Below, in pieces: positions 6,807-6,999 of a stretch of 64,000 nt of DNA. Both the position numbers and the translations under genes were made by a program. The DNA comes from an uncultured Clostridia bacterium (GTDB lineage Bacteria; Bacillota; Clostridia; TANB77; CAG-508): positions 96 through 64,095 of the forward strand of contig CANQCW010000002.1 of assembly GCA_947591055.1 (NCBI GenBank), written 5' to 3'. Positions within the stretch are counted from its first letter, which is position 1. Every line of letters starts with the position of its first letter. The notes beneath the pieces were generated by a model. It ran no database searches, had not been told where the DNA came from, and saw nothing but the letters and a program-made list of their open reading frames with translations.

Positions 6807-6999
6807 TTTATTAATGTAAAAACTTAATAAAAATTTATATGTCTAAAATATAGCATAACGTAGGGAAAAAATCAAGAAAATAAAAATTAAAAGTATATAA
6901 AAGTTTTATAAAAAATAAAAATAAAAAATCTTATAAAAAGCTTATATAAAGCTGGTTATAGGATTTTTTACTTTTTTATTAAGTTTTTACATTAATAAA
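6807..6999. promoter_or_regulatory. putative invertible promoter element (inverton) 1, OFF orientation
   Basis: Perfect 27-bp inverted repeats 6807-6833 / 6973-6999 flank 139 bp. That core contains a minus-strand promoter and an A-run/hairpin/T-run terminator (6923-6969). Confidence 0.6.
6847..6875 (-). promoter_or_regulatory. sigmaA-type promoter with extended -10, inside inverton 1, pointing away from the pilin-like gene
   Basis: Minus strand reads TTGATT (6875-6870), 17 nt, TGCTATATT (6855-6847). The hexamers are conserved in the two paralogous elements while the spacer sequence diverges. Confidence 0.6.

What the first reader, a model, noticed from the sequence alone, without database searches (positions are those of the whole stretch)
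6807..6999. Inverton-like switch 1: inverted repeats enclose an outward-facing promoter upstream of pilin-like gene P1
6807-6833 (TTTATTAATGTAAAAACTTAATAAAAA) and 6973-6999 are exact reverse complements (27 bp) enclosing 139 bp. Inside, on the minus strand, is a near-consensus promoter with extended -10: TTGATT 6875-6870, 17-nt spacer, TGCTATATT 6855-6847. It fires away from P1 toward the 3' end of a convergent gene, where there is nothing to express. An A-run/hairpin/T-run bidirectional terminator (6923-6969) lies between that promoter and P1. Only ~19 nt separate the right repeat from the P1 RBS, and I find no usable fixed promoter there. Flipping the core would place the promoter about 50-70 nt upstream of the P1 start and move the terminator upstream as an insulator. 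This is the OFF/ON layout of known invertible promoters (fimS, Bacteroides CPS promoters, C. difficile cwpV/flgB switches).
Basis: partly seen in the sequence, partly recalled or inferred. Interest (0 to 1): 0.85.

Follow-up and report, generated by a model that had tools for sequence, protein, structure and literature searches.

The report
Invertible promoter switch for surface proteins
This 193-bp element is very probably a flip-flop DNA switch, one of dozens of near-identical copies in uncultured gut Clostridia, each turning one gene of a large uncharacterised surface-protein family on or off; the principle is well known, and flipping was not seen at this locus.

Summary
A perfect 27-nt inverted repeat (6807-6833 / 6973-6999) encloses 139 nt. 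Composition-matched random sequence gives at most 16 nt.

It is not unique. The window has two sister switches (8305-8499, 14247-14439). I collected 46 distinct copies in all, 34 of them in one rabbit-gut Clostridia MAG.

Across copies, homology starts exactly at the outer edge of the far arm. Inside the core the best-conserved blocks are a minus-strand promoter (TTGATT, 17-nt variable spacer, TATGCTATATT) and a bidirectional terminator hairpin.

Each arm looks like a recombination core site: 9-bp half-sites around a 7-bp asymmetric spacer. The spacer varies between switches but is identical in both arms of 45 of 46. This fits the overlap-homology rule of tyrosine recombinases.

Nearly all copies are OFF. 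One (L005) is ON, and two orthologous contigs show an OFF-type junction.

Not shown: inversion at this locus (five assemblies are all OFF) and the recombinase (absent from the window and 587 kb of related DNA). The "pilin" label is weak.

Verdict: a real inverton and a new member of a known kind. Closest analogue: the Mycoplasma penetrans mpl promoter switches.

The parts
6807..6833 (.). Distal (left) arm of switch 1. It reads as outer half-site TTTATTAAT (6807-6815), 7-bp asymmetric spacer GTAAAAA (6816-6822), inner half-site CTTAATAAA (6823-6831), then AA.
   Evidence: perfect 27-nt inverted repeat. (dyad structure; spacer identical in both arms in 45 of 46 copies). (homology between copies begins here).
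6834..6972 (.). Invertible core (139 nt) carrying the promoter and the terminator.
   Evidence: core length is 138-141 nt in nearly all copies and identity to other copies is 79-91%.
6847..6875 (-). Outward-facing promoter, pointing away from P1 in this orientation. -35 TTGATT (6875-6870), 17-nt spacer, TaTGc + TATATT (6857-6847).
   Evidence: scan hit with TG; invariant columns C48 A49 T50 A51 and C67 A68 A69, no indels between them, and a variable spacer sequence across 46 copies.
6923..6969 (.). Bidirectional intrinsic terminator: A-run, interrupted 17-bp stem, T-run. In the present orientation it blocks read-through into P1.
   Evidence: -22.3 and -19.0 kcal/mol, z about -6. (helix 2: 94.9% of cells paired across 46 copies, 3 pairs with changes on both sides).
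6973..6999 (.). Gene-proximal (right) arm. AA complement (6973-6974), inner half-site (6975-6983), spacer TTTTTAC (6984-6990), outer half-site ATTAATAAA (6991-6999).
7000..7034 (+). Conserved gene-side flank (AATAACATAAT, about 90% conserved) and 5' UTR with RBS GGAGGGGG (7019-7026).
   Evidence: Only the gene-side flank is conserved; the distal flank is not.
7035..8162 (+). P1, 375 aa. It belongs to a large uncharacterised family with a basic leader, an invariant G-ITLIALVV hydrophobic segment, a long N-terminal helix and a globular domain.
   Evidence: PF07963 16.5 bits, cut-off 21.2. (1922 homologues, no Pfam domains, no names). (no NCBIfam hit). (AF2 pLDDT 84). (no PDB fold match).
8305..8499 (.). 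Sister switch with a different spacer (TTAAAAG in both arms). Promoter 8346-8374 on the minus strand. It lies upstream of pilin-like gene 8534-9403.
14247..14439 (.). Sister switch with arms identical to switch 1. Promoter 14287-14315 on the minus strand. It lies upstream of pilin-like gene 14473-15123.

Best explanation
Region 6807-6999 is a site-specific invertible promoter (inverton) that phase-varies the downstream surface-protein gene P1.

**OFF state (as sequenced).** The sigma-A-type promoter inside the 139-nt core fires away from P1. The core's terminator sits directly in front of the right arm and blocks read-through from the upstream nucleotidyltransferase gene.

**ON state (inferred).** A trans-encoded recombinase, most likely a tyrosine recombinase, pairs the two arms. 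Each arm is a 25-bp core site: 9-bp half-sites around a 7-bp asymmetric overlap GTAAAAA. The recombinase exchanges strands in the overlap and flips the core. The -10 hexamer then lies at about 6954-6959 and the transcription start near 6966, giving a 5' UTR of about 69 nt through the right arm to the P1 RBS. The terminator now lies upstream and acts as an insulator.

**Genome-wide picture.** The same enzyme presumably serves dozens of identical switches, each in front of one paralogue, giving combinatorial surface variation.

**Shown:** the anatomy, its conservation, arm and spacer co-variation, and the existence of a flipped paralogue.

**Inferred:** flipping of this copy, promoter activity, and recombinase class and identity.
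For: 1. The perfect 27-nt inverted repeat is far beyond chance.
2. There are 46 distinct copies: 3 in the window and 34 complete ones in MAG GCA_947628015.1. Homology starts exactly at the distal arm and runs into the gene's N-terminus, while distal flanks are unrelated.
3. Within the core the invariant G/C-containing blocks are the minus-strand -35 TTGA and the TRTGnTATATT extended -10. They sit at a fixed 17-nt distance with a variable spacer, which is the signature of a functional promoter. It would transcribe nothing conserved unless the core inverts.
4. The terminator hairpin is conserved (94.9% paired; z about -6).
5. The 7-bp spacer is identical in both arms in 45 of 46 switches. Seven of the 8 switches with a non-consensus spacer have both arms carrying the same variant (shuffle mean 0.25, maximum 4 in 10,000 shuffles). 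The half-sites are nearly invariant. This matches the overlap-homology rule of tyrosine recombinases (established knowledge).
6. Copy L005/L093 has the core flipped, so the promoter faces a gene with the same 5' UTR flank AATAACATAATATAAAA. Orthologous contigs L082 and L083 (93% aa identity) show the OFF-type junction ATTTTTTAC|IR. L035 is a second probable ON copy.
7. No target-site duplications, no Rfam family and no plasmid match.
Against: - No inverted form of any of the three window switches was found. Contigs from five ENA assemblies are 99.7-100% identical to the window in the OFF orientation.
- No tyrosine or serine recombinase was found in the 64-kb window (Pfam).
- Only 1-2 of about 47 copies are ON, and both precede non-P1-type genes.
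- For L082 and L083 the orientation evidence is only 9 nt.
- Promoter-like hexamers occur at chance frequency in this AT-rich DNA.
- By my own reading, TTTACA (6986-6991), 18 nt, TATAAA (7010-7015) could be a weak fixed promoter. Its start would fall inside the RBS.
- The T/G asymmetry marker at arm position 9 has one exception (L043).
Confidence: 0.8

Rival explanations
1. The switch family is real, but this copy, or this organism's whole set, is a fixed non-inverting regulatory module. On this view the arms are operator or cruciform sites for a DNA-binding regulator. P1 is transcribed from a weak fixed promoter overlapping the right arm, or by anti-termination of read-through. The outward promoter makes an antisense or regulatory transcript.
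For: - All three window switches are OFF in every assembly examined.
- About 45 of 47 copies have the same orientation.
- No recombinase was found.
- There is a possible TTTACA-18-TATAAA promoter at 6986-7015 (own reading).
Against: - The outward promoter would transcribe only unconserved flanks.
- A regulator-binding model does not predict spacer co-variation between the two arms of a switch alongside invariant half-sites.
- L005 shows the same core in the opposite orientation next to the same 5' UTR flank.
- The candidate fixed promoter fails the scan's criteria, and its transcription start would fall inside the RBS.
Confidence: 0.1
2. The element is a miniature inverted-repeat transposable element (MITE), or the remnant of an IS, that spread through the genome. 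Its terminal inverted repeats are transposase sites, not inversion sites.
For: - Size is about 193 bp with 27-nt terminal inverted repeats.
- There are dozens of copies per genome.
- Solo arms and half copies exist (L003, L006, L009, L032, L047).
Against: - There are no target-site duplications beyond 2-5 nt of A/T chance matches, even when offsets are allowed.
- The element always sits at the same distance and, with two exceptions, in the same orientation in front of one gene family.
- Homology continues through the right arm into the UTR and coding sequence.
- The internal promoter and terminator are under selection.
- There is no match in plasmids and no transposase in 587 kb (one search found no recombinase-like ORF; DDE transposases were not specifically searched).
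Confidence: 0.04
3. It is an inverton, but it is driven by a serine invertase (Hin/Gin/Mpi type) rather than a tyrosine recombinase.
For: - The global invertase of the Bacteroides fragilis promoter switches, Mpi, is a serine recombinase (own knowledge; the paper was not read here).
- The arm length of 27 nt is close to the 26-bp hix and gix sites.
Against: - The dyad has an odd 7-bp centre, with 9-bp half-sites at positions 1-9 and 17-25. It lacks the 2-bp central crossover of hix-type sites.
- Co-variation falls at the two outermost spacer positions, 10 and 16. That is where tyrosine recombinases test homology after cleavage (plus established knowledge).
- No enhancer-like element was identified.
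Confidence: 0.15

Closest known systems
Mycoplasma penetrans mpl (P35 family) promoter inversions (Horino et al. 2003, cited in PMC2268961 and PMC12398969)
   Same: - A multigene family of surface proteins (38 mpl genes) is scattered in several loci.
- Most genes have their own small invertible promoter and switch ON/OFF independently.
- The candidate recombinases are Xer-like tyrosine enzymes encoded elsewhere (PMC2268961).
   Different: - The host here is a spore-forming Clostridia gut commensal, not a Mollicute.
- The regulated proteins are N-terminally anchored and pilin-like, not lipoproteins.
- The arms are 27 nt with a recognisable 9-7-9 core-site structure.
- The recombinase was not identified here.
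- The original 2003 paper could not be opened, so element sizes were not compared.
E. coli fimS / FimB-FimE type 1 fimbrial switch
   Same: A short invertible segment carries a promoter that reads into an adhesin or fimbrial gene in one orientation only. Tyrosine recombinases act on short inverted repeats (own knowledge; related UPEC switches in PMC6083910).
   Different: - fimS is a single 314-bp locus with 9-bp inverted repeats and adjacent dedicated recombinase genes.
- Here there are dozens of 193-bp copies, no adjacent recombinase, and a built-in bidirectional terminator.
Bacteroides fragilis capsular-polysaccharide promoter invertons under a global invertase (Mpi)
   Same: One trans-acting recombinase serves many promoter switches that share a consensus inverted repeat and are scattered around the chromosome. 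The result is combinatorial surface variation (summarised in PMC2268961).
   Different: - Mpi is a serine recombinase, and the loci are polysaccharide operons.
- The phylum and the inverted-repeat consensus are different.
- The copy number here (at least 34 in one MAG) is higher than the roughly 13 Mpi sites (own knowledge).
Clostridioides difficile RecV-dependent switches (cwpV, flgB, cmrRST)
   Same: The bacterial class is the same. A tyrosine recombinase encoded at a distance flips several short switches that control surface structures. In cwpV the orientation decides whether a terminator forms (own knowledge; flgB switch inverted repeats in PMC12282940).
   Different: - C. difficile has about 7-8 switches with unrelated inverted repeats and heterogeneous mechanisms.
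- Here there is one stereotyped module in dozens of copies.
- Clostridia-like gut strains have a median of 3 invertons per genome (PMC11892184).

Membership tests
Invertible promoter (inverton) phase-variation switch | Short DNA segment bounded by inverted repeats | tested here: met
   27-nt perfect inverted repeat with a 139-nt core. Random expectation is 16 nt or less.
Invertible promoter (inverton) phase-variation switch | Promoter inside the segment that reads out through one repeat | tested here: met
   Minus-strand TTGATT-17-TGcTATATT. The -35 and extended -10 blocks are invariant, with fixed spacing and a variable spacer, in 46 copies. Activity was not measured.
Invertible promoter (inverton) phase-variation switch | Both orientations occur in a population or between isolates | tested here: inconclusive
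   - This locus is OFF in all five assemblies.
- In the family, L005/L093 is ON, and orthologues L082 and L083 show an OFF-type junction, though only 9 nt of it.
- An ON-specific pattern gave 0 hits in JGI metagenomes, but the organism is absent from that collection.
Invertible promoter (inverton) phase-variation switch | Cognate site-specific recombinase | tested here: inconclusive
   None in the window, in 587 kb of related loci or near two further family genes. Whole genomes could not be searched.
Tyrosine-recombinase core-type site (lox/FRT/dif-like) | Two inverted binding half-sites flanking a 6-8-bp asymmetric overlap region | tested here: met
   TTTATTAAK | GTAAAAA | CTTAATAAA in every arm.
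Tyrosine-recombinase core-type site (lox/FRT/dif-like) | Overlap region identical in the two partner sites but free to differ between site pairs | tested here: met
   45 of 46 switches have identical spacers in both arms. Six spacer types occur in matched pairs, and 7 of the 8 switches with a non-consensus spacer have the same variant in both arms (0 of 10,000 shuffles reached this).
Type IV pilin / pseudopilin (PF07963 N_methyl, class III signal peptide) | N-terminal G|(F/M)TLxE cleavage-methylation motif scoring above the family threshold, with Glu at +5 | tested here: not met
   PF07963 scores 16.5 bits against a cut-off of 21.2. There is no NCBIfam hit. Position +5 is an invariant Ala in 50 homologues (G29 T31 L32 A34).
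Type IV pilin / pseudopilin (PF07963 N_methyl, class III signal peptide) | Long N-terminal alpha-helix followed by a globular pilin head domain similar to solved pilins | tested here: inconclusive
   The AF2 model has a helix at 4-88 and a globular domain (pLDDT 84). No PDB fold match has E of 0.001 or better, and there is no sequence match.
MITE / non-autonomous transposon | Terminal inverted repeats flanked by target-site duplications, inserted in unrelated contexts | tested here: not met
   No target-site duplications. The position and orientation relative to one gene family are constant, and the gene-side flank is conserved.
Known RNA family (riboswitch or leader) | Match to an Rfam covariance model | tested here: not met
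   0 matches at E of 1 or less in 6600-7200.

The most novel reading that the evidence does not exclude
A single trans-acting tyrosine recombinase runs a genome-wide bank of at least 34 stereotyped promoter-plus-terminator invertons in spore-forming gut Clostridia. Together they give combinatorial expression of a family of about 1900 members of pilin-like surface proteins with a fold not seen in the PDB.

The 7-bp overlap sequence of each switch may act as an address. Neighbouring switches carry different overlaps, for example GTAAAAA at 6807 against TTAAAAG at 8305. This would stop them recombining with each other and deleting or inverting the gene between them. It would be a natural counterpart of engineered heterospecific lox sites.
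Probability: 0.35. Interest if true: 0.7.

Novelty: new member of a known kind. Interest (0 to 1): 0.55.

Why it matters
- **Scale.** If the switches flip, these uncultured gut Clostridia run one of the largest promoter-inversion repertoires described: at least 34 per genome, against a median of 3 for Clostridia-like gut strains (PMC11892184).
- **Target.** The switches control a big, completely uncharacterised surface-protein family. That points to strong host, phage or niche pressure on the family.
- **Assay handle.** The exact switch sequence gives a simple way to measure the family's expression state in metagenomes.
- **Recombination sites.** The stereotyped 9-7-9 sites, with natural spacer variants, would be a ready-made set of orthogonal recombination sites once the recombinase is found.
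- **Assembly.** The copies also explain why these MAGs fragment at these loci.

Tried and rejected
- **Metagenome scans.** An ON-specific pattern scan of JGI metagenome contigs gave 0 hits. A generic arm scan gave only 17 unpaired chance hits in unrelated DNA. The organism is not in that collection, so this says nothing about inversion.
- **Same-locus comparison.** Contigs of exact-protein matches for P1, P2 and P3 were all OFF and 99.7-100% identical to the window.
- **Other family loci.** Several contigs of other family members (P0011, P0024, P0101) were all OFF.
- **Recombinase hunt.** Nothing was found.
- **Identity of P1.** Pfam, NCBIfam, PDB sequence search and Foldseek against the PDB with a confident AF2 model gave no assignment.
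- **Known families and mobile DNA.** Rfam gave no hit and plasmids gave no match.
- **MITE reading.** Rejected for lack of target-site duplications and because of the constant gene context.
- **Contig breaks at the arms.** Breaks at switch arms (L070, L071, L076, L080, L081) were considered as signs of orientation heterogeneity. I rejected them as evidence because the multi-copy repeat alone explains them.
- **Literature.** Horino et al. 2003 (PMC141813) is not held. A search for the paper describing the 'Lapin' MAGs found nothing.

Full report
**1. The observation**

The arms 6807-6833 and 6973-6999 are perfect 27-nt reverse complements with 139 nt between them. The exact 27-mer is expected 0 times in shuffles but occurs four times in the window. 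In 60 composition-matched resamples of the window, the longest perfect inverted repeat with a gap of 300 nt or less was 12-16 nt.

- The minus-strand promoter is present: TTGATT at 6875-6870, 17 nt, TG-extended TATATT at 6852-6847.
- The A-run/hairpin/T-run folds strongly on both strands: -22.3 and -19.0 kcal/mol, z about -6.
- The gene upstream (6446-6754, +) is a small nucleotidyltransferase.
- The RBS (7019-7026) begins 19 nt after the right arm, and the ATG is at 7035.

**2. It is one of many copies**

The same arms, with the same spacing, recur at 14247-14439 in front of a second pilin-like gene (14473-15123). A diverged copy lies at 8305-8499 in front of a third (8534-9403). Aligning switches 1 and 2 shows that homology begins at the left arm and continues through the right arm into the coding sequence.

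A scan of one genome per species with a 20-mer from the arm returned 51 loci. Nearly all are from 'uncultured Clostridia' MAGs named Lapin-... From the name these are presumably rabbit gut. Thirty-four complete copies (33 distinct sequences) lie on contigs of one MAG, GCA_947628015.1. This is a lower bound, because an exact 20-mer was required.

The window itself is chromosomal. It carries pheT, recG, hrcA-grpE-dnaK-dnaJ, a polysaccharide locus and spore germination genes. It belongs to a related, unrepresented strain that appears in ENA assemblies ERZ272492xx.

**3. What conservation says about the parts**

In an alignment of 46 distinct copies (A2):

- The distal flank is unconserved, and conservation starts at the distal arm.
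- Inside the core, the invariant G/C-containing columns are ...ATAGCATA... and ...TCAA.... On the minus strand these read TTGA(t/a)t, 17 nt, TaTGcTATATT. That is a -35 hexamer plus a -10 with the TRTG extension typical of Firmicutes (own knowledge).
- There are no indels between the two blocks, and the 17 nt between them vary freely.
- The hairpin is kept: 94.9% of cells are paired, and three pairs have changes on both sides.

A promoter preserved this way, yet pointing into unrelated flanks, only makes sense if the core can be turned round.

**4. The arms look like recombination sites**

Each arm is itself a dyad. Half-sites TTTATTAA(T/G) and CTTAATAAA flank a 7-bp asymmetric spacer, GTAAAAA.

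- The half-sites are almost invariant in all copies.
- The spacer occurs as GTAAAAA, TTAAAAA, CTAAAAA, ATAAAAA, GTAAAAC or TTAAAAG. It is identical in the two arms of 45 of 46 switches.
- Seven of the 8 switches with a non-consensus spacer carry the same variant in both arms. The shuffle mean is 0.25 and the maximum 4 in 10,000 shuffles (helix 1).

This is the pattern expected of tyrosine-recombinase core sites. Their 6-8-bp overlap must match between partners but is otherwise free (established knowledge). A serine invertase site with a 2-bp centre fits the odd 7-bp centre poorly.

Six of 10 closely adjacent switch pairs carry different spacers, against 3.1 expected (permutation p about 0.02). 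The pair in this window is one of them (GTAAAAA at 6807, TTAAAAG at 8305). This hints that spacer divergence insulates neighbours from each other. It is only suggestive, because the copies are not independent.

**5. Orientation survey**

Relative to the gene-side flank AATAACATAAT, junction typing of all arms gave 53 terminator/gene-side and 72 promoter/distal junctions, which are the OFF configuration. Only one locus had promoter/gene-side junctions, the ON configuration (pattern tests).

The ON copy is L005 (the same locus as L093, contig CANQYG010000069). It reads: arm, terminator, TTGATT-17-TATGCTATATT, arm, AATAACATAATATAAAATTGATAGGAGG, GTG. It sits in front of a 155-aa membrane-anchored FxLYD-domain protein.

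- In most copies of that MAG the distal arm has T and the gene-side arm has G at position 9, in the outer half-site. In L005 these bases have stayed with the flanks while the core is reversed. That is what crossover inside the spacer predicts. One OFF copy, L043, breaks this rule.
- Two contigs from other assemblies carry the 93%-identical orthologue. They begin with ATTTTTTAC followed by the arm, which is the terminator-side (OFF) junction. Only 9 nt are available.
- L035, from another MAG, is a second probable ON copy with a diverged core.

At the window's own three switches, contigs from five assemblies are 99.7-100% identical to the window and OFF. Inversion of this copy is therefore inferred, not observed. 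All-OFF consensus sequences are what one expects if each switch is ON in only a small fraction of cells. They are also what a non-inverting element would give.

**6. What is switched**

- P1 has 1922 homologues at E of 0.001 or better, none with a Pfam domain or a name. The listed hits come from ENA and NCBI assemblies.
- The N-terminus has a basic leader of about 28 aa followed by an invariant G-ITLIALVV... segment. It scores below threshold on PF07963 (16.5 bits against 21.2) and has Ala, not Glu, at +5.
- There is no NCBIfam hit.
- An AF2 model (pLDDT 84) shows a helix at 4-88 and a globular domain with no PDB fold match.
- 'Pilin-like' is thus a resemblance, not a demonstrated membership.
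- Family genes sit singly or in small clusters among housekeeping genes.

**7. The missing enzyme**

No recombinase is encoded in the window, in 587 kb of fetched related DNA or next to two further loci. A global, distantly encoded recombinase would fit, as in B. fragilis or C. difficile. This remains the main gap.

**8. Rival explanations**

- **Fixed regulatory module.** This cannot explain the outward promoter, the spacer co-variation or L005.
- **MITE.** This is contradicted by the absence of target-site duplications, the constant gene context and selection on the internal signals. Solo arms and half copies do exist (L003, L006, L009, L032, L047) and look like decay products.
- **Known RNA family or plasmid sequence.** None matches.
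- **Weak fixed promoter.** TTTACA-18-TATAAA overlapping the right arm is possible by eye. It fails the scan's criteria, and its transcription start would fall inside the RBS.

**9. Comparison with known systems**

Functionally this is an inverton of the fimS type. In organisation it is closest to the Mycoplasma penetrans mpl family, where most of 38 surface-lipoprotein genes have their own invertible promoter and the candidate recombinases are Xer-like (PMC2268961). It also resembles the Bacteroides multi-promoter systems run by a global invertase.

It differs in host (spore-forming Clostridia), in the regulated family, in copy number and in the clear 9-7-9 site structure with natural spacer variants. 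For scale, Clostridia-like gut strains have a median of 3 invertons per genome (PMC11892184).

**10. Verdict**

This is a real, non-random, functionally constrained element. It is very probably a phase-variation switch, with probability about 0.8, and is most likely driven by a tyrosine recombinase, with probability about 0.6. I rate it a new member of a known kind, of moderate interest. Proof needs read-level evidence of inversion and identification of the recombinase.

Noticed in passing
window 8305-8499 and 14247-14439: Two sister switches lie in the same window. One has arms identical to switch 1. The other has a different 7-bp spacer (TTAAAAG) present in both of its arms. Each precedes its own pilin-like gene.
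   Followed up: yes
L006:640-680; L009:~570-591; L032:4761-4790; L003:489-600; L047:~2350-2580: Apparent decay products of switches. These include solo arms, one of which (L006) is fused directly to the gene-side flank with the whole core missing. There are also half switches that keep an arm and the promoter but have lost the terminator and the second arm.
   Followed up: partly
window 7000-7012, and the same position in all copies: The gene-side flank AAAATAACATAAT next to the right arm is about 90% conserved in 46 copies. That is more than the RBS region after it, while the distal flank is not conserved. Its function is unknown; it could be an accessory site, a 5' UTR element or a weak -10.
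   Followed up: no
window 5491 (inside gene 5313-6221, minus strand, DUF4912): Contigs from two independent ENA assemblies (L069, L071) both begin exactly at window position 5491, inside the DUF4912 gene. This suggests a repeat or a strain-variable junction there.
   Followed up: no
window 8471-8482: Contigs L071 and L070 end at 8471 and 8482, at the start of the right arm of the 8305-8499 switch. Other contigs (L076, L080, L081) end exactly at arm edges. The multi-copy repeat probably breaks the assemblies; orientation heterogeneity cannot be separated from this.
   Followed up: partly
window 49113-56822 (+): A 2569-aa secreted protein with a Sec signal peptide has no Pfam hit at all. It contains Asn-rich tandem repeats at about 50118-50343.
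   Followed up: partly
window 42492-45237 (+): A glycyl-radical enzyme and its radical-SAM activase are embedded in a cell-surface polysaccharide or teichoic-acid type locus (26253-46389). The locus also has LytR-CpsA-Psr, LicD, IspD-like, Wzx/Wzy-like and UDP-galactopyranose mutase genes.
   Followed up: no
window 6446-6754 (+): A solitary 102-aa MNT-type nucleotidyltransferase gene lies directly upstream of switch 1, and no HEPN partner was noticed. In the OFF state the switch promoter would transcribe antisense into it.
   Followed up: no
window 9384-9764 (+): A 126-aa ORF overlaps the end of pilin-like gene P2 by 20 nt and has no family hit. The same arrangement is kept in other assemblies (L098-L100), so it may be co-expressed with P2.
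   Followed up: no
window 16737-18593 (-), repeats at 17959-18129 and 18366-18452: A 618-aa protein has only a weak DUF2628 hit and carries 36-nt and 18-nt in-frame tandem repeats.
   Followed up: no
L084-L091 and L092: More distant homologues (45% and 77% aa identity) of the FxLYD-domain gene that is ON in L005 have ordinary upstream regions with no arms. The switch module has therefore been added to, or lost from, this gene lineage.
   Followed up: partly
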